Source: a virus (lineage: Duplodnaviria > Heunggongvirae > Uroviricota > Caudoviricetes). From it: a stretch of 21,199 nt of DNA. The stretch lies in the IMG/VR virus record IMGVR_UViG_2541047774_000002. One strand, given 5' to 3'. Below the pieces are notes generated by a model. It was given only the letters and a program-made list of their open reading frames with translations, had not been told where the DNA came from and ran no database searches. Position 1 is the first letter of the stretch; every line of letters begins with the position of its first letter. Below, one piece after another: positions 1,445 to 21,199 of the stretch. The position numbers and the translations under genes were made by a program.

Positions 1445-1461
1445 TTCAAACATCTCCCCAA

Positions 1462-3886: not shown

Positions 3887-3898
3887 CGGAGACTGAAA

Positions 3899-6155: not shown

Positions 6156-6415
6156 ATATCAACTTAATTTATCGTCATCCGTGTGAGCTGGAAATTGAAT
6201 CATTGCTGAGCCGTGAAGAGCCATATCCAGACACATTCACTCTTGCAGATCGCACGACTGAACGGCTTACCAGAGCGCGCACAGGTCTGGTTCATGTGAT
6301 GAATGAGATTCTTCCATCGGTGGGAGGGGAACAGGCGACAGTAATCACTAGCTGGCTACAAAAAGTTACCTCTCTGATAGATATCAGTTTAATCGATGCG
6401 GAGAGTGCGAAATGA
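6152..6415 (+). CDS. hypothetical protein (87 aa)
   Basis: ATGA start/stop overlap with the upstream gene; acidic protein. Confidence 0.55.
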   Translation: MNINLIYRHPCELEIESLLSREEPYPDTFTLADRTTERLTRARTGLVHVMNEILPSVGGEQATVITSWLQKVTSLIDISLIDAESAK

Positions 6416-6633
6416 CCAACATCCAGCTCATTGAAGCACAATGTCGCATCGAACAGGTTCAGACTGTTTTAGGGTTCTGGCTTGAAGGGGCCAGCCCCAG
6501 CAACAGAGACAAGTTAATGATTGGCGCGGTTATGTCACTGCTCAATGGCGTACCAGAAGCTATTCAGGAAGCAGACGAATTGTTGGGCAAATATGAGTTA
6601 CAGAATCATTCAGGCGAGGCGAAACATGAATAA
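6412..6633 (+). CDS. hypothetical protein (73 aa)
   Basis: ATGA overlap with the upstream gene. Confidence 0.55.
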   Translation: MTNIQLIEAQCRIEQVQTVLGFWLEGASPSNRDKLMIGAVMSLLNGVPEAIQEADELLGKYELQNHSGEAKHE

Positions 6634-7228
6634 TTTCTTAACTTTCCATGCAGAAGCAACGCCTGACGGCGTAAACATCATGTACCGCAGCAACGATGGA
6701 ATGACAGAACGCGTTGAGGCCGTCTCATATATTGATGCCGTAAATCGTCTGGATGCCGGGGATTATGACGATAAACCAGATGAAGGTATGTCAATACATC
6801 TCGCTATAGCCGATGGCGGCAACCAGGGATATTTCGATTACACATCACAGCATAACGTCATTATGTGGAGATGGCTGATCGCAACAGTATTCATGCTGGA
6901 AATGAGAGAGGAAAACGGCACTGTCAGCATCATTGATGATACTGGCAATCCTTCCGAAGTGGCTGTTTATTCCAACGGCATCGTCGCCATGCCGCTGTAT
7001 CCAGTAGCAGAGCGCCTCGCTATGGCAAACAACATTGAGGGCGCGATGATAGAACGTTTTGGCATCGAGTCTGGCACAGAACGCGCCATCATTTTCTACA
7101 GAGCCATGATGGATGTGGAACAAGGAGCACTGACTCCATTTGGTCGTGAAACGCTTGCTGAACTTCACAACAGCTTTATAGCTGAACTGAATGAAAACGG
7201 CATGCCAGCGGAACCAGTGACGCACTGA
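6626..7228 (+). CDS. hypothetical protein (200 aa)
   Basis: ATG at 6626 overlaps the upstream stop; the track's alternative start at 6521 is less likely because it would overlap the preceding gene by more than 100 nt. Confidence 0.55.
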   Translation: MNNFLTFHAEATPDGVNIMYRSNDGMTERVEAVSYIDAVNRLDAGDYDDKPDEGMSIHLAIADGGNQGYFDYTSQHNVIMWRWLIATVFMLEMREENGTVSIIDDTGNPSEVAVYSNGIVAMPLYPVAERLAMANNIEGAMIERFGIESGTERAIIFYRAMMDVEQGALTPFGRETLAELHNSFIAELNENGMPAEPVTH

Positions 7229-7238
7229 GGATGGAACC

Positions 7239-7580
7239 ATGATTACTAAAAATTTCCGACTGAATGCGCTGGCAAATAAGTATGCGTCGGCACTGTATAA
7301 CCACATTACCTCCACCAGCGGCGGGGACTATTTCATGGTTGATGCGGACGGCGAGGCCGTCCGTGTGGAAATCGTCAATGGAGTAAAAGGCGTTCGCAGC
7401 CTGATCGATAGCTACACACTAGCAACCATGAAAGTGTTCTACCCGCAGTGGGAAACCGTGGGGATCGAGCTTCTTGATCGTTGCGTCACTAAGGACGGAT
7501 TGACTGACGTTGGGCGCGAGATATGGCAAAGCATGGTTAATGACATGGGCGCAACTGTAGCGGGAGGTTCTCATGCGTGA
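7239..7580 (+). CDS. hypothetical protein (113 aa)
   Basis: ORF with GAGG about 8 nt upstream; same operon. Confidence 0.6.
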   Translation: MITKNFRLNALANKYASALYNHITSTSGGDYFMVDADGEAVRVEIVNGVKGVRSLIDSYTLATMKVFYPQWETVGIELLDRCVTKDGLTDVGREIWQSMVNDMGATVAGGSHA

Positions 7581-7944
7581 AAATGCAGAAATGGCGCTTA
7601 GCTCCGCAATCGGAGAGCAGGTGGCAAAGATTGCTGGTGCTGTGTGGATTCATAACCTTCATTCTACTGGTGAAGAGAAAATGGCAATTCAGACGCCAGA
7701 GGGACGCACCATTACTACATCTCTGAAGCCGTCAGATGTTTGTGATCTGATTTGCGCATTCATGTACCCAGCAATGAGGACTGCCCACGGCGATAAGTGG
7801 AAACTTGCGACAACCGCTGAATTTGATATGTGGCTAAACAATGATGGCATGCTGACTGATTACGGAATAACCAAGTGGCAGATGCTGGTTAGCCATATCG
7901 CAAACGCTATAGACCACGTGGGGTACGGTGATGCGAAACATTGA
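7573..7944 (+). CDS. hypothetical protein (123 aa)
   Basis: Overlaps both neighbours; same operon, immediately upstream of the primase. Confidence 0.6.
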   Translation: MRENAEMALSSAIGEQVAKIAGAVWIHNLHSTGEEKMAIQTPEGRTITTSLKPSDVCDLICAFMYPAMRTAHGDKWKLATTAEFDMWLNNDGMLTDYGITKWQMLVSHIANAIDHVGYGDAKH

Positions 7945-10687
7945 TCTTATCCGTCAGGTTATCAGTGCGTCTGAAAACAACTGGCCTCATGTGCTGGGCT
8001 GCCTGAACATAAATGTCCCTGACTCTCCGCGCCGTCATGCTCCCTGCCCTGCATGTGGGGGCAAAGATCGATTCCGGTTCGATGACAACGGGCGCGGTAG
8101 CTTCATCTGTAATCAGTGCGGCGCTGGTGATGGGCTGGATTTAATTAAACGCGTAAATAACTGCGACACAACAGAGGCGGCGCTTCTTGCCGCTGATGTT
8201 CTGGGTATTGATTACCGGACAACGGAAACACCAGAAGCCACCAGCCAGAAACGGGAACAACTGGAAACCGAGCGCCAGCGACGCGAACAGGAGCGCCTGA
8301 AAAGGGCAGAGAAGGATGAACAACAAAGACGGGATACGTTTTCCCGTCAGTTTGATGACATGCGCAGAAAGGCTGTAAACGGCAAATCTGATTATCTGGT
8401 TGCGAAAGGGGTAGGTGATTTTACATTCCCCGTGTTGCCCGATGGATCTCTGTTGCTGGCGCTGGTGGATAAATCCGGCGCAGTCACAGCAGCACAGACA
8501 ATTACCTCACATGGTGAAAAAAGACTCCTGACAGGTTCAGCAAAGCGGGGGGCATATCACGCCATAAACGCACCAGAAACAACACAGAGCATCTTAATCG
8601 CAGAAGGGCTGGCAACGGCATTATCTGCCCATTTAATTCGTCCAGAGGCGCTGACAGTGGCGGCGATTGATGCCGGGAACCTGTTATATGTCGCCCAGGT
8701 ACTGCGGGATAAATTTCCTTCAGCACAAATTATCATTGCTGCGGATAACGACCACAGCGAAGGAAGACAAAACACGGGGAGAATAGCAGCAGAAAAAGCA
8801 GCTTTATCTGTTTCTGGATGGGTGGCATTACCCCCGACAGATCACAAAGCAGACTGGAATGATTACCACCAAAAACACGGCATTAAATGCGCCACAGAAG
8901 CGTTCAATAAGTCAATGTACCAACCACAGGGTAATGGCGTGAAACAGGAGCCACAGACCATTGAGGGAAGCGATTTTAAGGTTATGGATACCGACCCACT
9001 GAAACCAAGAATAGAAAGCCGCGAGGATGGTATTTATTGGGTATCTCCGAGAGCTGACAGTCAGAGTGGAGAAATCATCAATAACGAAAGCTGGTTATGT
9101 TCTCCGTTAAGCGTTATCGGTACTGGCAGAGACGATAAAGACCAGTATCTCATTCTTCGCTGGCTGTCGTTTGGTTCTGAAACGCCGACAACCGCTGCCA
9201 TTCCACTGGCTGATATTGGTGAACGTGAAGGATGGCGCACACTTAAAGCTGGTGGGGTAAATGTCACGACCAAAAGCAGCCTCAGAGCAATACTGGCAGA
9301 CTGGCTACAACGCAGTGGCTCTCGTGAATTGTGGCGTGTTGCTCATGCCACTGGCTGGCAATGCGGAGCGTACATCATGCCTGATGGGGAAATCATCGGA
9401 ACACCTGAAAATCCTGTGCTGTTCAGCGGGAGAAGCTCAGCCGCAGCCGGATATACCGTCTCAGGGAGCGCGAAAAGCTGGCGTGATAACGTGGCGCGTC
9501 TGGCCTTTGGTAACTATTCAATGATGACCGGGATCGGCGCAGCACTGGCAGCGCCATTGATTGGGCTGGTGGGCGCTGACGGGTTCGGCATTCATTTCTA
9601 TGAGCAGTCGAGCGCAGGTAAGACCACCACGGCAAACGTGGCGAGCAGCTTATACGGCAACCCTGATTTACTGCGGCTGACGTGGTACGGAACCGCGCTG
9701 GGGCTGGCAAATGAAGCTGCCGCCCACAATGACGGACTAATGCCGCTTGATGAAGTTGGTCAGGGCGCTGATCCTGTCAGTGTTTCACAGTCTGCCTATG
9801 CGTTATTTAACGGTGTAGGGAAACTGCAAGGCGCTAAAGATGGTGGAAACCGGGATCTAAAACGCTGGCGTACAGTGGCAATCAGCACCGGAGAAATGGA
9901 TTTAGAAACATTTATCGCTACTTCCGGGCGAAAAACCAAAGCCGGGCAACTGGTGCGACTGCTGAATATTCCGTTGAGTAAAGCAGTACGCTTTCACGAT
10001 TACCAGAACGGAAAACAGCACGCAGACGCACTGAAAGACGCTTACCAGCATCACCACGGCGCAGCCGGGCGTGAGTGGATTAAATGGCTGACAGACCACC
10101 AGCAACAGGCAATTAAAACTGTTCGTGACTGCGAAAGCAGATGGAGAAGTCTGATCCCATCCGATTATGGTGAGCAGGTTCACCGTGTAGCCGCGCGATT
10201 TGCCATTCTGGAGGCCGCATTGCTGTTAGGCGAGGTTGTAACAGGCTGGGATGCTCAGACATGCCGTGATGCGATACAGCACAGCTATAACGCATGGTTG
10301 CGCGAGTTCGGCACAGGTAACAAAGAGCATCAGCAGATTATTGAACAAACGGAGGCATTTCTTAATGCCTATGGGCTTAGCCGTTTTGCACCATTTCCAT
10401 ACAGCCCGGCAGATTTGCCCATCAAAGATTTAGCCGGATACCGTCAGCGTGGAGAACATGACGAAAGCCCAATGATTTTCTACACATTCCCGGCCACATT
10501 TGAAAAGGAGATCGCATGTGGTTTCAACGCAAAACAGTTTGCTGAAGTGTTGAAAAAAGCCGGGATGCTAACCCCACCAAACAGCGGTCGTGGATACCAA
10601 AGAAAATCACCACGTATTCAGGGACGACAAATAAACGTTTATGTACTCAATTACCAGCCAGGAGATTATAACTCATCTGAAGAATGA
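7928..10687 (+). CDS. replicative primase-helicase (zinc-ribbon + Toprim + P-loop NTPase), P4-alpha/PICI-Pri-like
   Basis: 919 aa; N-terminal Cys4 motif CPACGG...CNQCG; Toprim-like acidic motif IIIAADNDHSEG; Walker A EQSSAGKTT and Walker-B-like GLMPLDEVGQ in the C-terminal half; followed directly by iterons. Confidence 0.9.
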   Translation: MMRNIDLIRQVISASENNWPHVLGCLNINVPDSPRRHAPCPACGGKDRFRFDDNGRGSFICNQCGAGDGLDLIKRVNNCDTTEAALLAADVLGIDYRTTETPEATSQKREQLETERQRREQERLKRAEKDEQQRRDTFSRQFDDMRRKAVNGKSDYLVAKGVGDFTFPVLPDGSLLLALVDKSGAVTAAQTITSHGEKRLLTGSAKRGAYHAINAPETTQSILIAEGLATALSAHLIRPEALTVAAIDAGNLLYVAQVLRDKFPSAQIIIAADNDHSEGRQNTGRIAAEKAALSVSGWVALPPTDHKADWNDYHQKHGIKCATEAFNKSMYQPQGNGVKQEPQTIEGSDFKVMDTDPLKPRIESREDGIYWVSPRADSQSGEIINNESWLCSPLSVIGTGRDDKDQYLILRWLSFGSETPTTAAIPLADIGEREGWRTLKAGGVNVTTKSSLRAILADWLQRSGSRELWRVAHATGWQCGAYIMPDGEIIGTPENPVLFSGRSSAAAGYTVSGSAKSWRDNVARLAFGNYSMMTGIGAALAAPLIGLVGADGFGIHFYEQSSAGKTTTANVASSLYGNPDLLRLTWYGTALGLANEAAAHNDGLMPLDEVGQGADPVSVSQSAYALFNGVGKLQGAKDGGNRDLKRWRTVAISTGEMDLETFIATSGRKTKAGQLVRLLNIPLSKAVRFHDYQNGKQHADALKDAYQHHHGAAGREWIKWLTDHQQQAIKTVRDCESRWRSLIPSDYGEQVHRVAARFAILEAALLLGEVVTGWDAQTCRDAIQHSYNAWLREFGTGNKEHQQIIEQTEAFLNAYGLSRFAPFPYSPADLPIKDLAGYRQRGEHDESPMIFYTFPATFEKEIACGFNAKQFAEVLKKAGMLTPPNSGRGYQRKSPRIQGRQINVYVLNYQPGDYNSSEE

Positions 10688-10712
10688 GCTTCTTCATGTG
10701 CGTAGAAAAGGT

Positions 10713-10823
10713 GTTGGTTCAGTTGGTTCAGTTGGTTCAATTTGTAAATAGTATTGTTTTATAAGGATTTTATTCTTTTTATTGAACCAACACTGAACCA
10801 ACAACACGGTATTTTGAACCAAC
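10713..10823. repeat. iteron cluster / putative replication origin: 3 tandem GTTGGTTCA (10713-10739), AT-rich spacer, 3 inverted TGAACCAAC (10783-10791, 10794-10802, 10815-10823)
   Basis: Repeats counted directly; iterons flanking an AT-rich core directly downstream of a primase-helicase gene is standard satellite/plasmid origin architecture. Confidence 0.6.
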
Positions 10824-10873
10824 ACAATGTGACTGAATTGATGCGCACAACACCTGGCTGGCATCAGAGAGTG

Positions 10874-10950
10874 TTTTACGAGACTTTCGTAAAATCCTGT
10901 GTACAAGGGCGTGACGTTTTTGAAAGTGGGCACTACGAAATTTTCGTAGT
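10874..10950. promoter_or_regulatory. two related palindromes: TTTTACGA-n5-TCGTAAAA (10874-10894) and perfect 19-bp ACTACGAAA-T-TTTCGTAGT (10932-10950); candidate operator pair
   Basis: Shared TACGA(A/G)A...TTTCGTA half-sites about 40 bp apart; neither is followed by a T-run, so they are more likely protein-binding sites than terminators. Confidence 0.35.
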
Positions 10951-11143
10951 TCAAAAAACAGCCTCTGAGAAGTTGTTATGCCTGTTCAGCAAACCATCCA
11001 CATAGCTGATCGCGAATCAAATTACCAATGGAGCCAGAAGCAAGGGCAGAACTGAAAAGCGCCTGCCGTGAAGAGTAATGCGACACCATAAATATAGTTT
11101 TTAGAGTCCATAAAAAACCTGTCAAAACCTGACACACAGAACG

Positions 11144-11177
11144 ATGCCACCAGCTACTGAGCGGTGGCATTTTTTTG
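11144..11177 (+). terminator. rho-independent terminator (ATGCCACC-loop-GGTGGCAT then TTTTTT)
   Basis: Perfect 8-bp stem, 11-nt loop, 6-7 T on the + strand; separates the replication module from the downstream operon. Confidence 0.6.
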
Positions 11178-11271
11178 TGCTATTTGTTTCATATTTTGCA
11201 ATTACGATGATGAATATTGCGATTTGTGAAACTATAATAACTGTTGTTTTATACAGTTCTAAGGGGGCGTT

Positions 11272-11433
11272 ATGGCTATTTCAGTAAAGCCGGTATTGAT
11301 AAGTGAGAAGCAAATGGAAGCGATAAAGAAAATTCAGGAAGAGCAGCGTAAAAAATCAGGAATTGGAGTAGCGCCAACTCTGCATGAAATTGCACGAGGG
11401 TTAATAGATAAGGCGCTGGCAGGCTGTATGTGA
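11272..11433 (+). CDS. small protein (53 aa), possible small DNA-binding regulator
   Basis: Not in the ORF track (under 60 aa). ATG 5 nt after AAGGGGG; translation read by hand: MAISVKPVLISEKQMEAIKKIQEEQRKKSGIGVAPTLHEIARGLIDKALAGCM; stop 16 nt before the next gene; sits right after an AT-rich promoter-like region. Confidence 0.4.
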   Translation: MAISVKPVLISEKQMEAIKKIQEEQRKKSGIGVAPTLHEIARGLIDKALAGCM

Positions 11434-11449
11434 AAATGGATGGCATCGC

Positions 11450-11911
11450 ATGGAACTAAAATTTATTGATAACCCTGTGCGATTACAGGCCTTTCTTAAC
11501 GAGCCAGGCAATACCGAAAATATTGTTGAGCCGGGGCACACGTACTACATCAAGCCTGATGCGGTATATCTCGGCATCTACGAAGGATTAGTGCTGGCTG
11601 GCGTTCATGAAGTGCGTAACTTCTGGCATAGCGTTGTTGAATGCCATGCGGTGTACGACCCCGGATTCCGTGGTGAATATGCACTGCAAGGGCATCGATT
11701 ATTCTGCAAATGGCTTCTCGAAAACTCACCATTCCTTAACAGCATCACTATGGTTCCTGACACCACGAAATATGGACGGGCAATTATCCGTTTGCTTGGC
11801 GCTACCCGTGTTGGTCACCTTGATGATGCTTATATCAGATGTGGTAAACCCGTCGGCGTAACGCTTTATCAGTTAACTCGGCAACAATATAAGGAATTCA
11901 GCGAATGTTAA
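11450..11911 (+). CDS. hypothetical protein (153 aa); possible accessory protein of an ejection-protein module (P22 gp14-like position)
   Basis: Normal globular composition; stop overlaps the start of the 699-aa gene (ATGTTAA); the positional assignment is inference only. Confidence 0.7.
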   Translation: MELKFIDNPVRLQAFLNEPGNTENIVEPGHTYYIKPDAVYLGIYEGLVLAGVHEVRNFWHSVVECHAVYDPGFRGEYALQGHRLFCKWLLENSPFLNSITMVPDTTKYGRAIIRLLGATRVGHLDDAYIRCGKPVGVTLYQLTRQQYKEFSEC

Positions 11912-14004
11912 TTACCCATATAGCTCATAAACATCTCAATCGTGCCGTATACGAAAAAGGCGGTGATGGTGGTGCCTCTAAAGCTCAGGCGAAGGCCCAG
12001 CAGCAGGCAATTGATTTGCAGCGCGAGCAGTGGAATACGGTGATGAATAATCTCAAGCCGTATGCAGAAGTCGGATTGCCTGCTTTACAACAACTGCAAG
12101 GACTGATGACTCTGGAAGGGCAGAATAAAGCCGCGAATGATTTCTTTGGTTCTGGTTTATATAAAACACAGGCAGATCAGGCCCGTTATCAGAACCTTGT
12201 CTCAGCAGAAGCTACCGGGGGGCTTGGCTCAACAGCTACCAGTAACCAGTTATCTTCCATTGCGCCCATGCTTTATAACAATTGGCTCAGTGGGCAAATG
12301 CAAAATTATGGAAACCTGCTAAATGTCGGGATGAATGCGGCATCAGGGCAGGCAACAGCAGGGCAAAACTACGCCAATAATACCGGGCAACTCTTGCAGG
12401 GGCTTGGCGCTATTCGTGCAGGTCAGGCGCAGCAGCCATCCAGTCTTGCGCGTGGTATTGGTGGGGCGGCATCAGGCGCTTTAGCGGGTGCGCAACTTGG
12501 TTCCGTTGTTCCGGGTATAGGTAATGTCGCCGGGGCTATTGGTGGTGGGCTTATTGGTCTTGTTGGGGGGGCTTGGATTCTAATGGCGACATGGCAACTT
12601 GGCGGGCTGCCTAGCATGGCACCGCAAAATGATAATGCTCCTCGTTCTTCCGTTCCTCAGCCTGTGCAGTATCAGCAGCACCCAAACGTAGGTTTAATGG
12701 CGCTACAGGGGCTAAGAGGCGTTGCTGAGATTAATCAGCAGGCACGTCAACAACAGCGTAAAGCAGAGTTTCAGAAAGCATATGCCGGGGCTTTTGAGTC
12801 TGGAGACAGAAACAAAATGCGCAGTCTTATTTCTGAGTATCCAGAAGAATTTGAAAGCGTTCAGAAAGGGATGGGCTTTATTGATGACGACCAGAGAAAT
12901 TCTATTGGTCATCTTGCGACTAGTGCTCAAATCGCATCTTCGCTCGGAACTGGGGCATTTGGAAAATTCATAGCAGATAACGAAGATGAAATGCGTCGCT
13001 TGGGAATTTCTCCTGAGTCTGTTGCCGAAATGCATGTTAATGATCCACAGGGATTCCAGCGGCTTGCTGGTAGTATGGCACTGTTTTCTCTCGGTCATGA
13101 GAAGTATTTCGATATCAAAGATCAAATGGAAGGTCGGGATATTGAGCGTGGCAAGTTGGCAGAGACAATCCGCAGCAATCAGGCTGGCGAAGCACTTCAG
13201 GCGAGAGGGCAGGATATTAGCCGAGCAAATGCGTTAACGTCAGCATATGCACCAACAGCAGCAATGCAGAATTACAATCAGTACGCTCAAATGTTAAAGG
13301 CGGATCCAGAGGGGGCGGCGGCATTTGCGGCAGCGGCTGGAATTAATACAAACGCCAAAAAATTAATGAGTGTTAGAGAAAACGATGATGGCACTGTCAC
13401 AAAATACTACACAGACGGAAGTGAAGAGCAGGGAAAACTAAACCAGCCAATATCTGGAGATGGGTTTCGTCCAATAGCTTTGCCAACAGCCCAAAAGATC
13501 ATGGAAAAGTCGCCAGAAGGGGCTAAAAAAGCTGCTGGATTTGCATACAGGGTTAGGGATGCTCTTGATTCAATAGATACACTGAAAGACCAGCTTAGCC
13601 CACAGCGAGTGGCGATCATTAATAATGCTTTGGGTAATGGGACGCTGGCTAACTTAACGCTCAGCCCAACAGAGCAGCAATACGTTGTTAATGCTAATGA
13701 CGCAATAATGGCAATACTCCGTCAGGAAACAGGGGCAGCTATCGCACCTGCTGAAATGTCAAAATATTATCAAATGTATTTCCCTCAGCCTGGCGACTCC
13801 ACAAAAACCATTGATACCAAGCGCCGGAAGATGGAAAACCAGTTCAATTCGCTGAAAGCTGCTTCTGGTCGAGCTTATGATGCTTTGCGGGTTATTTCAG
13901 CAGTTGACAGAGGAACTTCTTCTTCGTCGCAGACATTGCCGCAATCTGAGCAGGTATCACAGCCAGCAGCCAGCAGTAACTTTTCTTCACTATGGGGTGA
14001 TTAA
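11905..14004 (+). CDS. large low-complexity protein (699 aa); candidate phage ejection / internal-virion (DNA-transfer) protein
   Basis: N-terminal EKGGDGG followed by a Q/A-rich coiled-coil-like stretch; Q/N/G/A-rich low-complexity region; glycine-zipper hydrophobic segment GSVVPGIGNVAGAIGGGLIGLVGGAWILMATW; essentially no Cys; translationally coupled on both sides. Confidence 0.75.
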   Translation: MLITHIAHKHLNRAVYEKGGDGGASKAQAKAQQQAIDLQREQWNTVMNNLKPYAEVGLPALQQLQGLMTLEGQNKAANDFFGSGLYKTQADQARYQNLVSAEATGGLGSTATSNQLSSIAPMLYNNWLSGQMQNYGNLLNVGMNAASGQATAGQNYANNTGQLLQGLGAIRAGQAQQPSSLARGIGGAASGALAGAQLGSVVPGIGNVAGAIGGGLIGLVGGAWILMATWQLGGLPSMAPQNDNAPRSSVPQPVQYQQHPNVGLMALQGLRGVAEINQQARQQQRKAEFQKAYAGAFESGDRNKMRSLISEYPEEFESVQKGMGFIDDDQRNSIGHLATSAQIASSLGTGAFGKFIADNEDEMRRLGISPESVAEMHVNDPQGFQRLAGSMALFSLGHEKYFDIKDQMEGRDIERGKLAETIRSNQAGEALQARGQDISRANALTSAYAPTAAMQNYNQYAQMLKADPEGAAAFAAAAGINTNAKKLMSVRENDDGTVTKYYTDGSEEQGKLNQPISGDGFRPIALPTAQKIMEKSPEGAKKAAGFAYRVRDALDSIDTLKDQLSPQRVAIINNALGNGTLANLTLSPTEQQYVVNANDAIMAILRQETGAAIAPAEMSKYYQMYFPQPGDSTKTIDTKRRKMENQFNSLKAASGRAYDALRVISAVDRGTSSSSQTLPQSEQVSQPAASSNFSSLWGD

Positions 14005-16109
14005 TGGCTAAAGCATGGAAAGATGTTATCGCCTCTCCACAGTATCAGGCGTTAGCACCAGAACAAAAAGCGCAGGCTCAGGAGCAATACTTCAATGAAG
14101 TCGTTGCCCCGCAAGCCGGAGAAAGTGTAGAGCAGGCTAAGCAGGCTTTTTATGCTGCCTATCCACTACCATCAACGAATGAAATAGACCGATCCCAATC
14201 AGCAACTCAAAATATTCAACATACATCATCTGATAATTCTCTTGCGTCAGGGTATGCAAAGTTAGCTACTCAGCAAAGAGAGGGGCTTGAGCGTTCAGCA
14301 GAACAGGGAGCCAGTCTTGGGGCTGCGATGCGCGATGCTATAACAGGCGAAAGCCGAATGACTCCAGAGATGGAGAGACTGCAAAATGTCACCTCTGCCC
14401 CAGAATTGAACTCACTAAGCATGGATGCCCTAAAGGCTGGATGGTCTCAACTTTTCGGCTCTGACGCGTCTCAGGAAAAGATTCTTCAGGGAATGGGGGC
14501 GACATTAAGGCAGGATGAGAAGGGGAATACTATCGTTTCTCTGCCATCAGGTGATTATGCCCTGAACAAGCCGGGTTTATCACCGCAAGACCTGACTTCG
14601 TTTCTTGCTAATGCGTTGGCGTTTACACCAGTGGGCAGGGCTGGAACGGTGCTTGGTGCCATAGGAAAATCAGCAGCTACAGATTTAGCACTACAGGGAG
14701 CCACCAGCCTTGCTGGTGGAGAAGATATTGATCCGTTACAAACGGTAATTTCTGCTGGCATTGGTGGTATTGGTAAGGGGCTGGAAAATACAGCGAGTGC
14801 GGTTTCGAGGGCTGTTCGTGGTGATATGTCGCCTGAAGCAAAGGCTGCTGTCGACTTTGCATCGGAAAGAAATCTGCCGTTAATGACCAGTGACATGCTG
14901 AAAGATAAAACCTTTATGCAGAGTCAGGCTCAGACATTAGGCGAAAGAGTTCCTTTTTTTGGAACCGGTAAGAATCGGCTGAATCAACAACAAGCACGAG
15001 AAAATTTAGTCAGAACATTTAGCGATGGTCTGGGTGGCATTTCTGATAAACAGCTTTATGAATCTGCGACTAAAGGGCAACAAAAATTCATTGAGGCAGC
15101 AGGAAAGCGATATAACCGCATAATTGACGCTATGGGGGATACCCCTGTCGATCTCTCAAACACGGTAAAAGCTATCGACAATCAGATTGCCGTGTTAAGC
15201 CGCCCGGGCAAATCTCAGGATAGAGCCGCGGTAAAAGTCTTGCAGCAATTTAAAGACGATATCACCAGCGGACCAAATGACCTGCGTCTGGCGAGGGAAA
15301 ACAGAACCGATCTTCGAAAGCGATTTATGGCGTCATCTGACACTGTTGATAAAGATACGCTCCAGAAAGCCAGCGATATTATCTACAAGGCATATACGGC
15401 GGATATGAAAAAAGCCGTAGCCAAAAATCTTGGAGCAGACGAAGCCATTAATATGGCAAGGGTTGATCGCTCATGGTCTAAATTCAATGACATGATGGGA
15501 AGAACGCGCGTTCAAAAGGCAATAGCCAGCGGCAAGGCCACGCCTGAGGATGTAACAAAACTCGTTTTTAGCCAAAGCCCATCAGAACGTTCTCAGCTTT
15601 ACAGGCTTCTGGATGACAATGGTAGGCAAAACGCACGAGCAGCCATAGTTCAGAATGCTGTAGATAAGGCGACTGATCCGTCTGGAAATATCAGTGTTGA
15701 GAAGTTTATTAATGCGTTACACCGGAACAGGAAGCAATCAGCAACTTTCTTTAAAGGCGTACATGGAAAGGAACTGGACGGCGTTATTAAATACCTCAAC
15801 GATACAAGACACGCGGCAAAAGCGAACGTTCAAAACTTAAATGGTCAGCAGCTTTATGGATTGTTAGTTGGTGGTGGCATCATAAACGCAGCAGTATTAG
15901 CGGGGATGCTAAAAACGGCTGCGTTTGTTGTTCCTGCTGCTGGTGCCGTAGGCGGAGCAGCGAAGGCATACGAAAGCCCTGTTATACGAAATGCCTTGTT
16001 ACGTCTGGCAAATACGCCAAAAGGTAGCACAGCATATGACAGAGCGATCAGTACGGTCACACAATCGCTCACCAGAGTCGCACAGGCATCACAAAAAGAA
16101 GCTCAATAA
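14004..16109 (+). CDS. large low-complexity protein (701 aa); candidate phage ejection / internal-virion protein
   Basis: TAATG overlap with the upstream gene; A/Q/K/S/G-rich, largely helical-looking; C-terminal Gly/Ala-rich hydrophobic segment LLVGGGIINAAVLAGMLKTAAFVVPAAGAVGGAAKA; no Cys; followed by a terminator. Confidence 0.75.
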   Translation: MAKAWKDVIASPQYQALAPEQKAQAQEQYFNEVVAPQAGESVEQAKQAFYAAYPLPSTNEIDRSQSATQNIQHTSSDNSLASGYAKLATQQREGLERSAEQGASLGAAMRDAITGESRMTPEMERLQNVTSAPELNSLSMDALKAGWSQLFGSDASQEKILQGMGATLRQDEKGNTIVSLPSGDYALNKPGLSPQDLTSFLANALAFTPVGRAGTVLGAIGKSAATDLALQGATSLAGGEDIDPLQTVISAGIGGIGKGLENTASAVSRAVRGDMSPEAKAAVDFASERNLPLMTSDMLKDKTFMQSQAQTLGERVPFFGTGKNRLNQQQARENLVRTFSDGLGGISDKQLYESATKGQQKFIEAAGKRYNRIIDAMGDTPVDLSNTVKAIDNQIAVLSRPGKSQDRAAVKVLQQFKDDITSGPNDLRLARENRTDLRKRFMASSDTVDKDTLQKASDIIYKAYTADMKKAVAKNLGADEAINMARVDRSWSKFNDMMGRTRVQKAIASGKATPEDVTKLVFSQSPSERSQLYRLLDDNGRQNARAAIVQNAVDKATDPSGNISVEKFINALHRNRKQSATFFKGVHGKELDGVIKYLNDTRHAAKANVQNLNGQQLYGLLVGGGIINAAVLAGMLKTAAFVVPAAGAVGGAAKAYESPVIRNALLRLANTPKGSTAYDRAISTVTQSLTRVAQASQKEAQ

Positions 16110-16113
16110 CTGG

Positions 16114-16137
16114 TTAGCCATGGATGGCTAATTTTTG
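16114..16137 (+). terminator. rho-independent terminator (TTAGCC-atggat-GGCTAA then TTTTTG) in the 18-bp gap between convergent genes
   Basis: 6-8 bp stem followed by a T-run on the + strand; the stop codon of the convergent minus-strand gene lies inside the hairpin. Confidence 0.5.
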
Positions 16138-16487
16138 TTCTTTGCTCTCATCCATAGGTAAAGAAGGGAAAGAACAAGACAAAAAACAGAGAATAGATAA
16201 CCTACCTCATATGGTGCGCCAAAAAAATTAGCTATTGATACGGGCAAAAAAGCTGAGGCGATCAAAATTGAAAGGCAAAAAATAAGCCCAGTAATATAGT
16301 TTATTAAATTCTTAAATGAGAAACGTTTTGCTTGATTTACGGTCTTAACGAACGATCGCTTAACGACGGATAAAAGCAAATAGATGGCGACAGTTGCTAA
16401 TGCCCCTTTCCACCAGTCTGGATATAGTTTTGCGACAATCAGACCAAGGAAAACCGTAAGCGTAAACTGACCGCCGTATGTAGCCAT
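16128..16487 (-). CDS. small integral membrane protein (3-4 predicted TM helices); 5' end interrupted by the IS66-family insertion
   Basis: Hydrophobic segments ALATVAIYLLLSVV, ITGLIFCLSILIASAFLPV, VGYLFSVFCLVLSLLYLWM; the first 11 codons of the track ORF (16456-16487) lie inside the IS left inverted repeat, so the native gene continues beyond the IS (see findings). Confidence 0.5.
   Translation of the reverse strand: MATYGGQFTLTVFLGLIVAKLYPDWWKGALATVAIYLLLSVVKRSFVKTVNQAKRFSFKNLINYITGLIFCLSILIASAFLPVSIANFFGAPYEVGYLFSVFCLVLSLLYLWMRAKNKN
16448..16455. repeat. target-site duplication GGAAAACC (left copy)
   Basis: 8 bp immediately outside the IS left end, identical to 18988-18995. Confidence 0.8.
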
Positions 16488-16540
16488 CAGACGAGAATTG
16501 GTAACTTAGACGCCCATCTGATATAGACGGACATCTAAGT

Positions 16541-16966
16541 ATGGAATTACAGGACTGGCGAAAAGAACCTCGTAAAAACTATTCGAATGAATTCAAACTT
16601 CGTATGGTGGAACTGGCATCACAACCTGGAGCTTGTGTTGCACAGATTGCACGTGAAAATGGCGTCAATGATAATGTTATTTTCAAATGGCTCAGGCTCT
16701 GGCAGAACGAAGGGCGTGTTTCGCGGCGTCTTCCGGTAACGACCTCTTCTGACACTGGCGTTGAATTATTACCTGTAGAAATAACGCCGGATGAGCAGAA
16801 AGAACCTGTGGCGGCCATTGCGCCGTCTTTATCCACTTCCACTCAGACCAGAGTCAGTGCCAGTTCCTGCAAGGTGGAATTCCGTCACGGTAACATGACG
16901 CTGGAAAATCCATCGCCAGAGCTGCTCACAGTGTTGATCCGTGAACTGACCGGGAGGGGAAGATGA
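16541..16966 (+). CDS. IS66-family accessory protein TnpA (orf1)
   Basis: 141 aa; N-terminal HTH-like region; stop overlaps the tnpB start (ATGA). Confidence 0.85.
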   Translation: MELQDWRKEPRKNYSNEFKLRMVELASQPGACVAQIARENGVNDNVIFKWLRLWQNEGRVSRRLPVTTSSDTGVELLPVEITPDEQKEPVAAIAPSLSTSTQTRVSASSCKVEFRHGNMTLENPSPELLTVLIRELTGRGR

Positions 16967-17313
16967 TCTCACTCCCATCAGGTACCCGTATCTGGCTCGT
17001 TGCCGGCGTTACCGATATGCGTAAATCCTTCAACGGACTGGGAGAACAGGTACAACATGTGCTGAATGATAATCCCTTCTCCGGTCACCTGTTTATCTTC
17101 CGTGGCCGACGGGGTGACACCGTCAAAATTCTTTGGGCTGATGCTGATGGTCTGTGCCTGTTCACCAAACGCCTGGAGGAAGGCCAGTTTATCTGGCCTG
17201 CGGTACGTGACGGCAAGGTATCCATTACCCGCTCGCAACTGGCAATGCTCCTCGATAAGCTGGACTGGCGTCAGCCAAAAACATCCAGCCGTAACTCACT
17301 GACAATGTTGTAA
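16963..17313 (+). CDS. IS66-family Orf2 / TnpB
   Basis: 116 aa; sequence recognised as the IS66 Orf2 family (LPSGTRIWLVAGVTDMRKSFNGL...); size and position typical. Confidence 0.9.
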   Translation: MISLPSGTRIWLVAGVTDMRKSFNGLGEQVQHVLNDNPFSGHLFIFRGRRGDTVKILWADADGLCLFTKRLEEGQFIWPAVRDGKVSITRSQLAMLLDKLDWRQPKTSSRNSLTML

Positions 17314-17343
17314 AAAACTCCTGACCGCATTATAAAAACGGTC

Positions 17344-18957
17344 ATGAGTCAGAAATACCTCATTCGCATCGCAGAGCTGGAAAGGTTGCTCTCTGAGCAG
17401 GCTGAAGCCCTCCGTCAGAAAGACCAGCAACTGAGTCTGGTTGAAGAGACGGAAGCCTTCCTGCGCTCTGCACTGACACGTGCCGAAGAAAAGATCGAAG
17501 AAGATGAACGGGAAATAGAACATCTGCGGGCTCAGATAGAAAAACTGCGCCGGATGCTGTTCGGTACCCGTTCTGAAAAACTGCGTCGTGAAGTTGAACT
17601 GGCTGAGGCTCTGCTGAAACAACGTGAACAGGACAGCGATCGTTACAGTGGGCGGGAAGACGATCCTCAGGTTCCCCGCCAGTTGCGACAGTCGCGCCAT
17701 CGTCGTCCGTTACCGGCACACCTTCCCCGTGAAATACACCGCCTGGAGCCAGAAGAAAGCTGTTGCCCGGAGTGTGGCGGTGAGCTGGATTATCTGGGGG
17801 AAGTCAGCGCTGAACAGCTGGAACTGGTGAGCAGTGCCCTGAAAGTGATCCGCACAGAACGGGTAAAAAAAGCCTGTACAAAATGTGACTGTATTGTTGA
17901 AGCACCGGCGCCGTCCCGCCCGATAGAGCGTGGTATCGCGGGCCCCGGATTACTTGCCCGCGTGTTAACGGGAAAATACTGCGAACATCTGCCACTGTAT
18001 CGTCAGAGTGAAATCTTTGCCCGCCAGGGTGTCGAACTGAGCCGGGCCTTACTCTCCAACTGGGTTGACGCGTACTGCCAGTTAATGACACCGGTGAATG
18101 ATGCCCTGTACCGTTATGTAATGAACACCCGCAAGGTTCACACTGATGACACACCGGTAAAGGTACTGGCACCGGGTCAGAAAAAGGCGAAAACAGGGCG
18201 TATCTGGACGTATGTCCGGGATGATCGCAATGTGGGTTCGTCATCTCCTCCAGCGGTCTGGTTCGCGTACTCGCCGAACCGGCAGGGGAAACACCCGGAG
18301 CAACACCTCCGCCCCTTCCGGGGTATCCTGCAGGCGGATGCGTTCACAGGTTACGACAGGTTGTTCAGTGCAGAACGTGAAGGTGGTGCACTGACAGAAG
18401 TTGCGTGCTGGGCCCATGCCCGGCGAAAAATCCACGATGTATACATCAGCAGCAAAAGTGCGACGGCAGAAGAAGCCCTGAAGCGAATCAGTGAACTGTA
18501 CGCCATCGAGGATGAAATACGGGGATTACCGGAGTCAGAGCGTCTTGCCGTCAGGCAGCAGCGAAGCAAAGTGTTACTGACGTCGCTGCATGAATGGATG
18601 GTGGAGAAGAATGGTACGCTGTCGAAAAAATCCAGACTGGGCGAAGCGTTCAGCTATGTACTGAATCAGTGGGATGCCCTCTGTTATTACAGTGATGACG
18701 GTCTGGCGGAGGCGGATAATAATGCTGCGGAAAGAGCGCTTCGTGCAGTCTGTCTCGGAAAGAAAAACTTTATGTTCTTTGGCAGCGATCACGGCGGCGA
18801 GCGTGGAGCACTGTTGTACGGGCTGATCGGCACCTGCCGTCTGAACGGTATCGATCCGGAAGCGTATCTGCGCCATATCCTGAGCGTACTGCCGGAATGG
18901 CCTTCCAACCGAGTTGACGAACTCCTGCCATGGAACGTAGTACTCACCAATAAATAA
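17344..18957 (+). CDS. IS66-family transposase TnpC
   Basis: 537 aa; N-terminal coiled-coil/leucine-zipper region; zinc-finger CCPECGG...CTKCD; C-terminal DDE-type catalytic region; stop abuts the right inverted repeat. Confidence 0.9.
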   Translation: MSQKYLIRIAELERLLSEQAEALRQKDQQLSLVEETEAFLRSALTRAEEKIEEDEREIEHLRAQIEKLRRMLFGTRSEKLRREVELAEALLKQREQDSDRYSGREDDPQVPRQLRQSRHRRPLPAHLPREIHRLEPEESCCPECGGELDYLGEVSAEQLELVSSALKVIRTERVKKACTKCDCIVEAPAPSRPIERGIAGPGLLARVLTGKYCEHLPLYRQSEIFARQGVELSRALLSNWVDAYCQLMTPVNDALYRYVMNTRKVHTDDTPVKVLAPGQKKAKTGRIWTYVRDDRNVGSSSPPAVWFAYSPNRQGKHPEQHLRPFRGILQADAFTGYDRLFSAEREGGALTEVACWAHARRKIHDVYISSKSATAEEALKRISELYAIEDEIRGLPESERLAVRQQRSKVLLTSLHEWMVEKNGTLSKKSRLGEAFSYVLNQWDALCYYSDDGLAEADNNAAERALRAVCLGKKNFMFFGSDHGGERGALLYGLIGTCRLNGIDPEAYLRHILSVLPEWPSNRVDELLPWNVVLTNK

Positions 18958-18987
18958 GCGTCAATACGGTGCTCCGTTGACGCTTAC

Positions 18988-18995
18988 GGAAAACC
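18988..18995. repeat. target-site duplication GGAAAACC (right copy)
   Basis: 8 bp immediately outside the IS right end, identical to 16448-16455. Confidence 0.8.
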
Positions 18996-19037
18996 ATGAT
19001 GACAGCCTGAGCATTCACACCAACCCTCCCTTTAGCT

Positions 19038-19418
19038 TTGTTTAGAATGGCAATCATCATATATCCAAGACATGGCATTTGGTACATAGCTTGGGTCGGG
19101 ATTTCAAATCCGATCCCCGTTGATGGGGCCGTTACAGTACGCGCATATCCGCTTTATGTGAAACAGGAAGATTTTTCTGATATCACTGCCACAGCAAAAC
19201 ACCAATTTCGAGACAAGTACGCGCGCGAGGGGTATCAGTTGCAAAAAATTTTGCAACTACGTCCGACCAGTATGCACACGATGGCGGGGGGATACCATAA
19301 AACTGTTCTCTACATGAGACAGAGTGGTGGTGATGTGTTGATTATCGACGTATATGCGCACAGGACGCGCTATGACGATGTTTTATGCGGGTACACCAAT
19401 CACATGTATCTGGTGTGA
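19038..19418 (+). CDS. questionable hypothetical ORF (126 aa)
   Basis: Track ORF only; no clear SD; its 5' part overlaps the reconstructed upstream region of the IS-interrupted membrane gene on the opposite strand; may be a gene fragment or non-coding. Confidence 0.25.
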   Translation: MFRMAIIIYPRHGIWYIAWVGISNPIPVDGAVTVRAYPLYVKQEDFSDITATAKHQFRDKYAREGYQLQKILQLRPTSMHTMAGGYHKTVLYMRQSGGDVLIIDVYAHRTRYDDVLCGYTNHMYLV

Positions 19419-20051
19419 TAAATCGCGTTACATGACCTCTCATGTTGTACTGGTGGTTATCACGACGTTCTGAATCTGGCCTTTGCCTGGTATTTTGCGA
19501 CAAGTACGCGCGCGTAGCATCGAAATAATCGGATGGCGTATGCTGCTGGTAATATGAAGACCGATAGCATTAACCGTAAGGAGAAAGACTTCTCGATAAC
19601 GGCAAGGGGGCTGAATTGCGAGGCGAGATTAAGCAACTGTCTTGAACGTAAAAATCATGGAGCAACATGATGGTACGATTCATTCCATTCTTCGTTCTTT
19701 CTGAGCATTGCGTTCAGGCTTAGTCAAAATTAGTGTTGCGAGCGGACCTATTAGTAATTGTTGGTGCGATGCGTCTGTTATGGATTGTTATGGTTGTGGC
19801 AGGCCTGATTAATATCCAGTATGACCACCAGCTATGAGAGGCCACCTCAGTGGTTCGCAGTTGCAGGTTTGCACTCAGGTTCGCAGGGTTTTGGCTACTT
19901 TCACGTGCGAACCTGCAGAATTGCAAAGGACAACTAAGTCCTCTGGTCAACTCCCGGTTTATGAGCGACACAGTCCGCCTGGCGCATCGTTTTCGTCGAG
20001 CGCGCCCATCAGCTTGTCCATGGACTATCCACCACTCGATATTAAAGCTAA

Positions 20052-20237
20052 TCATTGGTTGCCAGCCCGCGAATCAAGTTTGTTCTGGATCCAAGCTTCA
20101 ACCTCCTCAAGCGACCATCTAGCTGATCTACCAATTTTAACTGGCTGTGGAAACGTGCCCGTCTTAACCCATGAGTAGATTGCCGTTTTCTTGAAGCCCG
20201 TTCTGAGCATGACTTCGCTTAATTTGATAAGGCGCAT
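20052..20237 (-). CDS. alpA: AlpA-family HTH regulator / excisionase-like (second copy, opposite strand)
   Basis: 61 aa; IKLSEVMLRTGFKKTAIYSWVKTGTFPQPVKIGRSARWSLEEVEAWI matches the AlpA pattern; no integrase or primase adjacent, so it looks like a remnant of a second element. Confidence 0.75.
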   Translation of the reverse strand: MRLIKLSEVMLRTGFKKTAIYSWVKTGTFPQPVKIGRSARWSLEEVEAWIQNKLDSRAGNQ

Positions 20238-20487
20238 AGAGGCTCCTCTGCTTTAGATTAAGCATAGTGACAATCTGGCTTTGGGTGGTATCCAAAAGCG
20301 AGGTATCCATGTTGGTATCCACCAAAACGCTGTTTACCAAAAAGTTACCACCGGAACAGGACATTTTGAGCTGTAACTTAACACATAGCATATGGAGTTC
20401 ACGCATAGACTTCACGCACAACGGCTCTGGCCAGTGAAGAATCACCCTGGCTGGCAATATAATGCCGATCACCATCAGAGGGGAATC

Positions 20488-20680
20488 CATGACACCACGA
20501 GAAATCGAGCTGCTGACCATTGCCAAGCTGGAGCATGGCGGCCACCAGCTCAGCCCGGCAGAACTGCGGGAATTAAGGCGCCAGCTGGCAGAGGGCCCTG
20601 TAATAGCCAGGCGGTACCGCGAAATGATGACCAGCCCCGCATATCGCTGGAGCAAACCAGCGCCGCTCCGTGCGCGGTGA
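20488..20680 (+). CDS. small hypothetical protein (63 aa, Arg-rich)
   Basis: In-frame ATG inside the track ORF 20462-20680 with GAGGGG about 8 nt upstream; function unknown. Confidence 0.4.
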
Positions 20681-20754
20681 GCAGCACCTAACCAGCACTA
20701 GACAAGCCCTGTGCTGGTGGATGTCCCTCATAATTAGCGGTTTTTAAACGGCGT

Positions 20755-20875
20755 GTTGGTTCACGGCCTCTTTTTGTTGGTTCAAAAATGGGGTGTGTTG
20801 GTTCACTTTTTGCGAATAATTCTTTTAAAAACAATACTCTTTACAAATTGAACCAACTGAACCAACTGAACCAAC
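20755..20875. repeat. second iteron cluster, inverted relative to 10713-10823: 3 spaced GTTGGTTCA (20755-20763, 20776-20784, 20797-20805), AT-rich spacer, 3 tandem TGAACCAAC (20849-20875)
   Basis: Repeats counted directly; 20841-20885 is nearly the exact reverse complement of 10701-10745. Confidence 0.6.
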
Positions 20876-20911
20876 ACCTTTTTGCTTATCTATATAGTCT
20901 GAGAGGCAGAA

Positions 20912-21199
20912 ATGATAAGGGACAGGAAAGCTGAAGATCTGGAGTCAAAAGGGCTATACCGGAGAGCTGCCGCACGATGGGCAGAAGTCATGATGCTGGC
21001 AGATGGCGATAAAGAACGTGAACATGCAGCAAACAGACGCTCTGAATGTATCCGTAAGGCGGCACGCCAACCAGCAACTACAGACAGATTCGGAGATTTA
21101 AGACAGGCAGTTAAGCGAACTCATTCGGCTCTTGGTATGGATGAGGAAGCGAGAGGGTACTTCAGGCGTTATCGCGATAAAGATTGCCAGAGACAGTAA
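20912..21199 (+). CDS. PerC-like small transcriptional regulator (tentative)
   Basis: 95 aa ending at the window edge with a TAA stop; N-terminus MIRDRKAEDLESKGLYRRAAARWAEVM resembles PerC-family proteins of enterobacterial prophages; assignment from memory. Confidence 0.5.
   Translation: MIRDRKAEDLESKGLYRRAAARWAEVMMLADGDKEREHAANRRSECIRKAARQPATTDRFGDLRQAVKRTHSALGMDEEARGYFRRYRDKDCQRQ

What the first reader, a model, noticed from the sequence alone, without database searches (positions are those of the whole stretch)
16448..19156. IS66-family insertion with perfect 8-bp TSD interrupts the 5' end of a convergent membrane-protein gene
The IS ends (GTAAGCGT... at 16456 and ...ACGCTTAC at 18987) are flanked by identical GGAAAACC octamers (16448-16455 and 18988-18995), which indicates a simple and probably recent transposition. 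Removing the IS and one TSD copy in silico joins 16455 to 18996. The minus-strand membrane ORF then stays in frame upstream through 18996-19153 with no stop, with candidate start codons at 19060 and 19087 and an ATG formed exactly at the junction. The native gene was therefore probably longer than the 119-aa track ORF, whose first 11 codons are IS sequence. The insertion may have inactivated the gene or put it under IS-derived signals.
Basis: seen in the sequence. Interest (0 to 1): 0.5.

Follow-up and report, generated by a model that had tools for sequence, protein, structure and literature searches.

The report
ISEc23 insertion knocks out prophage membrane gene
A well-known E. coli jumping gene (ISEc23) has recently landed in codon 11 of a small, uncharacterised prophage membrane-protein gene and almost certainly switched it off, which is an ordinary event.

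Summary
Window 16456-18987 is a complete 2532-bp IS66-family element (tnpA, tnpB, tnpC). It differs by one base from copies annotated ISEc23 and is flanked by a perfect 8-bp duplication, GGAAAACC. Removing the IS and one repeat in silico gives a sequence 100% identical over 1061 bp to the uninterrupted site in E. coli 582. None of 5426 complete E. coli genomes carries either junction, so the insertion is simple, recent and strain-specific.

Six loci from three genera, plus homologues of 36-38% identity that begin MNxQ, place the start at GTG 19018, preceded by a GGGAGGG ribosome-binding site. The starts proposed at 19060, 19087 and the junction ATG are not supported. The native protein is 116 aa, shorter than the 119-aa chimeric ORF. 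The IS sits in codon 11, between promoter, ribosome-binding site and start codon on one side and 106 codons on the other. No IS-derived expression signals were found, so a null allele is most likely.

The one mildly interesting point is the target. It belongs to a tiny unannotated family of predicted four-helix proteins that lay tail-to-tail with a P22 gp16-type ejection-protein gene wherever the neighbour was visible. That is the sieA position, but there is no detectable homology to SieA.

The parts
16448..16455 (.). Left copy of the 8-bp target-site duplication, GGAAAACC
   Evidence: a single copy is present in empty-site genomes
16456..18987 (+). Complete ISEc23 (IS66 family), 2532 bp. It has one private or rare base, A at 18074, which gives TnpC C244Y.
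   Evidence: full-length copies annotated ISEc23, listed at 100.0% identity; one mismatch to four copies, same termini; the A variant is in 18 of 5426 genomes
16456..16479 (+). Left terminal inverted repeat (IRL), GTAAGCGTAAACTGACCGCCGTAT
   Evidence: 19/24 match to the reverse complement of the right end, with the first 8 identical
16541..16966 (+). tnpA, accessory helix-turn-helix protein, 141 aa
   Evidence: PF01527 at 5e-12, NF047595 at 83 bits against a cut-off of 74
16963..17313 (+). tnpB, IS66 Orf2-type accessory protein, 116 aa
   Evidence: PF05717 at 1e-36, NF033819
17344..18957 (+). tnpC, IS66 DDE transposase, 537 aa
   Evidence: PF03050 at 7e-97 plus the zf-IS66, LZ and C-terminal domains, NF033517 at 9e-135
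18964..18987 (-). Right terminal inverted repeat (IRR)
18988..18995 (.). Right copy of the 8-bp target-site duplication, GGAAAACC
16128..16455 (-). Promoter-distal part of the interrupted membrane-protein gene. It runs from the last base of native codon 8 to the TAG stop and lacks a native start codon and ribosome-binding site.
   Evidence: the intact gene is WP_000560496.1 in empty-site genomes
18988..19018 (-). Promoter-proximal stub of the gene. It holds the conserved GTG start (19018-19016), codons 1-10 and the first base of codon 11. As inserted, it reads on into IRR to a TGA at 18944-18946, giving a 24-aa peptide MNAQAVIMVFRKRQRSTVLTLIYW.
19024..19030 (-). Shine-Dalgarno sequence GGGAGGG, 5 nt upstream of the GTG start
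   Evidence: GGAGG, GGAGA or GGGAGGG followed by N5 and GTG is conserved in all six loci, and nothing further upstream is conserved between the different genomic contexts
16128..16487 (-). Chimeric 119-aa ORF. The ATG at 16487 and the next 31 nt come from IRL, fused in frame to native codons 9-116. There is no Shine-Dalgarno sequence and no promoter-like site.
   Evidence: this exact product is absent from a collection of 153 billion gene positions
14004..16109 (+). Neighbour: P22 gp16-type ejection (injection) protein gene, 701 aa. It is convergent with the target gene, and the two stop codons are 18 bp apart with a shared hairpin at 16112-16133.
   Evidence: phrog_770 at 2.5e-163; 30% identity to P22 gp16, E = 5e-51; terminator-like hairpin

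Best explanation
A copy of the known insertion sequence ISEc23 (IS66 family; TnpA and TnpB accessory proteins plus a TnpC DDE transposase) transposed into the chromosome of this strain and duplicated 8 bp of target, GGAAAACC.

The target is a 116-aa gene for a predicted four-helix membrane protein. It starts at GTG 19018 behind a GGGAGGG ribosome-binding site and is read on the minus strand. It lies tail-to-tail with a P22 gp16-type ejection-protein gene inside a P4-like island integrated next to thrW.

The IS entered codon 11. The promoter, ribosome-binding site, start codon and first 10 codons are now 2.5 kb away from the remaining 106 codons. Translation from the native start ends after 24 residues inside the IS right end. 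The distal part can be read only from an ATG inside the IS left end, which has no ribosome-binding site and no recognisable outward promoter. The gene is therefore most probably a null allele.

Shown: the identity, boundaries and duplication of the IS; the empty site; the position of the true start; and the uniqueness of the insertion. Inferred: loss of expression, and any biological role of the target. Its position suggests a prophage-expressed membrane protein that acts on incoming P22-type ejection proteins, like SieA.
For: - IS anatomy and family domains.
- Full-length copies annotated ISEc23, listed at 100.0% identity, in thousands of E. coli records. Four of them checked base by base differ from the window copy at one position.
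- Identical termini and perfect 8-bp duplications at four other copies.
- The in-silico excision product is 100% identical over 1061 bp to E. coli 582; 124 genomes cover at least 80% of it. The intact gene is annotated there.
- Neither junction is present in 5426 complete genomes. The chimeric product is not on record anywhere.
- Start codon. SD-N5-GTG is conserved in six loci from three genera. Upstream there are indels, and Yersinia has an in-frame stop 12 codons before the GTG. The junction ATG is ATA in L010 and ATT in L013. Four representatives at 36-38% identity align from residue 1 with invariant M1, N2 and Q4.
- No promoter-like site on the minus strand in the IS left end, and promoter-like sites overall are no more frequent than in shuffled sequence.
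- The invariant motif LGLIVAKLYP starts immediately after the insertion point.
Against: - Expression was not measured. Weak antisense transcription inside the IS could reach the distal part. The chimeric ORF keeps 108 of 116 native residues and still has a hydrophobic first segment, so residual function cannot be excluded.
- RefSeq annotates the intact gene as 129 aa, starting at window 19057.
- The consensus promoter scan also found no promoter for the intact gene, so its silence on the IS end is weak evidence.
- ISfinder itself could not be queried. The name ISEc23 rests on RefSeq annotation of near-identical copies.
Confidence: 0.88

Rival explanations
1. The native gene is longer than the chimeric ORF, at 129-139 aa, and starts at ATG 19057, 19060 or 19087. 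On this reading the IS removes 21-31 N-terminal residues.
For: The minus-strand frame is open up to 19153. RefSeq aa and some callers 130 or more. The upstream stretch is near-identical in a second E. coli variant, L013.
Against: Nothing upstream of the Shine-Dalgarno sequence is conserved in Edwardsiella, Yersinia or other E. coli prophage contexts. There are indels, and L004 has an in-frame stop. Distant homologues start at MNxQ. No Shine-Dalgarno sequence precedes 19057 or 19060, whereas GGGAGGG-N5 precedes the GTG. Close E. coli variants show amino-acid changes in the extension (K to N, R to M, G to E).
Confidence: 0.07
2. The true start is the ATG re-formed at the junction (18997), giving 109 aa. 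On this reading the IS sits essentially at the start codon or in the leader rather than inside the ORF.
For: Gene callers chose this start in Edwardsiella and Yersinia (P0012 and P0016).
Against: That codon is ATA in L010 and ATT in L013, and I or T in distant homologues. The seven codons before it are conserved at the protein level, with N2 and Q4 invariant. Even on this model the duplication splits the ATG from the body, because the left copy reads ACG, so the gene is still severed.
Confidence: 0.03
3. The insertion created a functional chimeric gene. The 119-aa ORF, with 11 IS-derived codons, is expressed from IS-borne signals and still makes a working membrane protein.
For: The in-frame ATG at 16487 keeps all invariant residues. 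The chimeric N-terminus is still hydrophobic.
Against: No Shine-Dalgarno sequence precedes 16487. No outward promoter-like site was found. The insertion is found in no other genome, so there is no sign of selection or spread.
Confidence: 0.07
4. This is not a simple transposition. The IS arrived by recombination between two IS copies, or it is an assembly artefact.
For: ISEc23 is multicopy in E. coli (median 3 places per genome), which invites recombination and misassembly.
Against: The perfect 8-bp duplication and the exact colinearity of both flanks with an uninterrupted site are the signature of direct transposition. Recombination between two copies would leave non-matching flanks.
Confidence: 0.02

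Closest known systems
ISEc23 (IS66 family insertion sequence of E. coli)
   Same: Length 2532 bp, identical termini, tnpA-tnpB-tnpC organisation and an 8-bp duplication. It differs at one base from the four common copies checked.
   Different: One base differs: A at window 18074, giving TnpC C244Y. This variant is shared with only 18 of 5426 genomes, mostly on plasmids, several from cattle isolates. This insertion site is not seen elsewhere.
P22 SieA (superinfection exclusion protein A, PF26849)
   Same: The target gene occupies the same slot. It lies immediately downstream of and convergent with the gp16 ejection-protein gene: 18-bp gap here, 22 bp in P22. It also lies between gp16 and the tailspike in complete P22-like prophages. 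It is a small, multi-helix hydrophobic protein. SieA escape mutations map to gp16 and gp20 (PMC10883804).
   Different: No detectable sequence relationship: hhalign probability is 0.3% for a single sequence and 2.2% for profile against profile. It is 116 aa against 164 aa. The conserved SieA motif FxRYPxEAxxFNK is absent. No function has been tested.
WP_000560496.1, hypothetical protein of E. coli thrW islands
   Same: This is the intact allele of the interrupted gene, identical over the shared residues.
   Different: It is annotated with a 13-codon N-terminal extension (129 aa) that comparative evidence does not support.

Membership tests
IS66 family / ISEc23 | DDE transposase of the IS66 type (TnpC) with zinc-finger and leucine-zipper N-terminal domains | tested here: met
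   PF03050 at 7e-97, with PF13005, PF13007 and PF13817; NF033517 at 449.6 bits against a cut-off of 180
IS66 family / ISEc23 | Upstream accessory genes tnpA (helix-turn-helix) and tnpB (IS66 Orf2), overlapping or tightly spaced in one orientation | tested here: met
   tnpA is 16541-16966, tnpB is 16963-17313 with a 4-nt overlap, and tnpC starts at 17344
IS66 family / ISEc23 | Imperfect terminal inverted repeats beginning GTAAGCG | tested here: met
   8/8 at the tips and 19/24 overall. That this tip is typical of the family is from my own knowledge.
IS66 family / ISEc23 | 8-bp target-site duplication | tested here: met
   for the window; for four other copies, each with a different perfect 8-mer
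IS66 family / ISEc23 | Near-identity to the ISEc23 reference entry in ISfinder | not testable with these tools
   ISfinder is not available. The proxy is a one-base difference from RefSeq copies whose transposase is named 'IS66-like element ISEc23 family'.
SieA superinfection-exclusion family (PF26849) | Sequence homology to P22 SieA types A, B or C | tested here: not met
   hhalign probability 0.3% and 2.2% against type A. Types B and C were not tested.
SieA superinfection-exclusion family (PF26849) | Conserved cytoplasmic motif FxRYPxEAxxFNK near the C-terminus (PMC10883804) | tested here: not met
   The motif is absent from all family members in alignments A4 and A6.
SieA superinfection-exclusion family (PF26849) | Gene located between homologues of P22 genes 16 and 9, read convergently with gene 16 | tested here: met
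   L004, L010 and L011 are P22-like prophages (L010/L011 with coat and gp14/gp7/gp20/gp16 genes on one side and a Head_binding tailspike gene beyond; L004 likewise without the coat gene in view). A convergent gp16-like neighbour is also present in L003, L015, L016 and L017.
SieA superinfection-exclusion family (PF26849) | Inner-membrane protein with several transmembrane helices | tested here: inconclusive
   Hydropathy gives four hydrophobic segments. The AlphaFold model has four helices but a mean pLDDT of 57.8. Localisation is not testable here.
SieA superinfection-exclusion family (PF26849) | Blocks DNA delivery by superinfecting P22-like phages | not testable with these tools
   This needs plating and potassium-efflux assays of the kind used in PMC10883804.

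The most novel reading that the evidence does not exclude
The interrupted gene founds a very small, unannotated family: 7 clusters at 50% identity among 1.84 billion proteins. Its 115-120-aa members are predicted four-helix membrane proteins. Wherever the downstream neighbour was visible, the gene lay tail-to-tail with a P22 gp16-type ejection-protein gene, both in complete P22-like prophages and in P4-like thrW islands that carry only ejection-protein genes. It could be a superinfection-exclusion protein that is not homologous to SieA and acts on the gp16/gp20 DNA-delivery conduit. This window would then hold a natural IS knock-out of it.
Probability: 0.3. Interest if true: 0.5.

Novelty: already known. 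Interest (0 to 1): 0.15.

Why it matters
In itself it matters little. IS insertions that inactivate accessory prophage genes are routine in E. coli, and the element is a catalogued one.

The follow-up has two practical uses. First, it corrects the start of a recurrent RefSeq hypothetical protein from 129 aa to 116 aa with a GTG start. Second, it flags an uncharacterised membrane-protein family that replaces sieA next to the gp16 ejection-protein gene. If that family excludes P22-like phages, strains with and without this IS would differ in phage sensitivity, and the family would add a second, unrelated solution to the SieA problem.

Tried and rejected
- Pfam, PHROGs, NCBIfam and PADLOC scans of the target protein gave nothing meaningful. 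The local Pfam copy also failed to hit the gp16-like protein, so it probably lacks the newest models such as PF26808 and PF26849.
- tblastn of the 116-aa protein against 50,697 phage records: no match.
- A PDB profile search of the family: no match.
- The AlphaFold2 model built from a 10-sequence alignment has a mean pLDDT of 57.8. That is too poor for a fold search, so none was run.
- Rfam on 15900-21199 and tRNA scanning found no RNA element at or near the site. The tRNA-like look of 19095-19125 was not confirmed.
- Consensus promoter scans found neither an IS outward promoter nor the native promoter. They are therefore uninformative on expression.
- An exact look-up of the chimeric 119-aa product in public assemblies found nothing.
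- A literature search for satellites carrying ejection-protein genes surfaced no paper combining those terms among the eight results shown.
Full report
**1. The observation.**
- GTAAGCGT begins at 16456 and ACGCTTAC ends at 18987, so the element is 2532 bp.
- The octamers 16448-16455 and 18988-18995 are both GGAAAACC. The identity stops there: CAA or TAC lies to the left, GTA or ATG to the right.
- The two ends are inverted repeats, 8/8 at the tips and 19/24 overall.
- The element carries three same-strand ORFs:
  - tnpA, 16541-16966, HTH_Tnp_1;
  - tnpB, 16963-17313, IS66 Orf2, PF05717 at 1e-36;
  - tnpC, 17344-18957, DDE_Tnp_IS66 at 7e-97, with the IS66 zinc-finger, zipper and C-terminal domains.
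- NCBIfam agrees.

**2. Identity of the element.**
Full-length matches are found in thousands of E. coli records, 3333 of them covering at least 80% of the query. There the transposase is annotated 'IS66-like element ISEc23 family'. I extracted four such copies with their flanks.
- All four have the same first and last bases and their own perfect 8-bp duplications: GCTCTTTC, TTAACAAG, ACAACAAC and CTCATAAC. No target consensus is evident.
- The window copy differs from these four at one position: A instead of G at window 18074, which changes TnpC Cys244 to Tyr.
- A 55-nt probe centred on that base finds the A variant in only 18 of 5426 genomes. Of the 26 places, 19 are on plasmids, and several of the listed isolates come from cattle.

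**3. Proof that this is a simple insertion.**
- I joined 16455 to 18996 in silico and searched 1061 bp of the product against all complete E. coli genomes. Strain 582 matches at 100% over the full length, eight more genomes match at 99.8-99.9%, and 124 genomes cover at least 80%.
- Two 600-bp probes, one across each junction, find no genome with more than the IS half or the flank half. None of the 5426 genomes carries this insertion.
- The chimeric 119-aa product is not on record in a collection of 153 billion gene positions.
- Taken together: perfect duplication, flanks identical to an empty site, an IS one base away from widespread copies, and no other carrier. This is a recent, strain-specific transposition.

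**4. The target gene and its true start.**
In empty-site genomes RefSeq annotates a 129-aa hypothetical protein, WP_000560496.1. Its start corresponds to window 19057. Gene callers elsewhere chose 130, 129, 116 or 109 aa.

I fetched the DNA of homologues from Edwardsiella tarda (L003), Yersinia enterocolitica (L004), E. coli P22-like prophages (L010 and L011), two metagenomic contigs (L012 and L013) and others. I then aligned the 120 nt upstream of the gene.
- Conservation begins abruptly at a Shine-Dalgarno sequence (AAGGAGG, GGAGA or GGGAGGG) followed by 5 nt and GTG.
- Upstream of that the sequences are unrelated except in L013, an E. coli variant whose upstream stretch is near-identical to the window's. 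They differ by indels, and Yersinia has an in-frame stop 12 codons before the GTG.
- The codon that forms the junction ATG in the window is ATA in L010 and ATT in L013.
- An exhaustive HMM search of 1.84 billion representative proteins found only seven clusters. The four distant ones (36-38% identity, 115-120 aa) align from residue 1, with M1, N2 and Q4 invariant.

The start is therefore GTG 19018-19016, with GGGAGGG at 19030-19024, and the native protein is 116 aa (MNAQAVIMVFLGL...). The open frame further upstream, to the TAA at 19154-19156, and the ATGs at 19057, 19060 and 19087 are real. They are not supported as coding.

**5. What the insertion does.**
- The duplication covers the last base of codon 8, codons 9 and 10, and the first base of codon 11.
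- On the promoter side, translation from GTG 19018 runs through ten native codons into the IS right end. It stops at 18944-18946 after 24 residues.
- On the other side, codons 9-116 remain but the ATG of codon 8 now reads ACG.
- That ATG has no purine-rich ribosome-binding site.
- The consensus scan finds no outward promoter on the minus strand of the IS left end, and promoter-like sites overall are at the level of shuffled sequence. The same scan also fails to find the native promoter in an empty-site locus, so it is weak evidence.
- The invariant block LGLIVAKLYP begins right after the insertion point. The chimeric N-terminus is still hydrophobic, so a trace of function cannot be excluded if the ORF were translated.
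- My reading is a null or near-null allele. This step is inferred, not shown.

**6. Context and possible role of the target.**
- The window runs through these features in order:
  - proA;
  - tRNA-Thr (CGT), 1369-1444;
  - integrase, 1610-2824;
  - AntA-like and Ash-like genes;
  - DUF927 primase, 7928-10687;
  - P22 gp14-like gene (DUF2824);
  - gp7 and gp20 homologues;
  - gp16-like gene, 14004-16109;
  - the target gene, then the IS;
  - AlpA-family regulator (minus strand);
  - PerC.
- The same island sits between thrW and the pao genes in strains 582 and XJW9B263.
- The target gene's stop is 18 bp from the gp16-like stop, and a hairpin lies between them.
- In phage P22 that position is occupied by sieA, 22 bp from gene 16 and convergent with it.
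- Every homologue whose downstream neighbour was visible lies tail-to-tail with a gp16-type gene:
  - P22-like prophages, with the tailspike gene beyond (L004, L010, L011);
  - a primase-bearing island in Edwardsiella (L003);
  - three short contigs whose convergent neighbour is 61-63% identical to the window gp16-like protein (L015, L016, L017).
- In L012 the contig ends just after the gene, and it sits near an Arc/Mnt-like gene. In L013 the convergent 705-aa neighbour was not scored against gp16.
- The target family is nevertheless not SieA by sequence. hhalign gives 0.3% for a single sequence and 2.2% for profile against profile, and the SieA motif FxRYPxEAxxFNK is absent.
- No Pfam, PHROG, PADLOC, PDB or phage-record match exists. 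The structure model is too uncertain to use, with a mean pLDDT of 57.8.
- 'Works like SieA' is therefore a positional hypothesis, to which I give about 0.3.

**7. Verdict.**
The finding is real and correctly classified, but ordinary: a catalogued IS has inactivated an accessory prophage gene in one strain. The residual interest lies in the uncharacterised gene family in the sieA slot and in the island that carries only ejection-protein genes. Neither is part of the IS finding itself.

Noticed in passing
window 12565-12571 (within ORF 11905-14004): A run of seven G stands where E. coli XJW9B263 has six. The extra base fuses the P22 gp7-like gene (225 aa) and the gp20-like gene (473 aa) into one 699-aa ORF. 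This is either a homopolymer sequencing error or a genuine frameshift in the ejection-protein genes.
   Followed up: partly
window 1369-21199 (whole thrW island); also L003 and L015: The backbone is that of a P4-like or satellite-like island: integrase next to thrW, AlpA, DUF927 primase, Ash, AntA and PerC. It carries P22-type gp14, gp7, gp20 and gp16 ejection-protein genes, but no capsid or tail gene was among the ORFs I scanned. Primase, SSB, gp20, gp16 and the membrane gene recur together in Edwardsiella tarda. At least 80% of window 10688-16455 is present in 180 of 5426 E. coli genomes. The one literature search I ran surfaced no description of satellites carrying ejection proteins.
   Followed up: partly
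window 18074: The ISEc23 copy carries A where the four common copies I checked have G, giving TnpC C244Y. The variant occurs in only 18 of 5426 complete genomes, mainly on plasmids, several from cattle isolates. This hints at a plasmid source for this copy. Whether the change affects transposase activity is unknown.
   Followed up: partly
window 19047-19418 (+): A divergent ORF is annotated in some genomes as the 123-aa hypothetical protein WP_001444474.1. Its start overlaps the RefSeq 129-aa start of the target gene by 11 nt. Its homologues differ by frameshifts and internal deletions, so its coding status is doubtful. If it is real, the IS right end is now 59 bp upstream of it, and tnpC read-through could drive it.
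   Followed up: partly
window 19206-19222 and 19498-19514: GACAAGTACGCGCGCG occurs as a direct repeat about 290 bp apart in the region between the target gene and the AlpA gene. Deletion variants among homologues of the + ORF seem to end near similar repeats.
   Followed up: no
L001 16138-17351; L002 1-759; hits H106 and H107: Other strains carry different IS elements in the same island: an IS3-family element between a truncated primase gene and a truncated gp16-like gene in strain 582, an IS66-family element just upstream of the gp16-like gene in 22AR0118, and an ISEc22-family element within the matched stretch in EC26. The ejection-protein module of this island is being degraded repeatedly.
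   Followed up: no
L013 4505-4945: An E. coli variant of the target gene shares the upstream region and the first ~20 codons from the GTG start almost exactly with the window allele. It then drops to about 40% identity, which indicates a mosaic recombination joint inside the gene.
   Followed up: no
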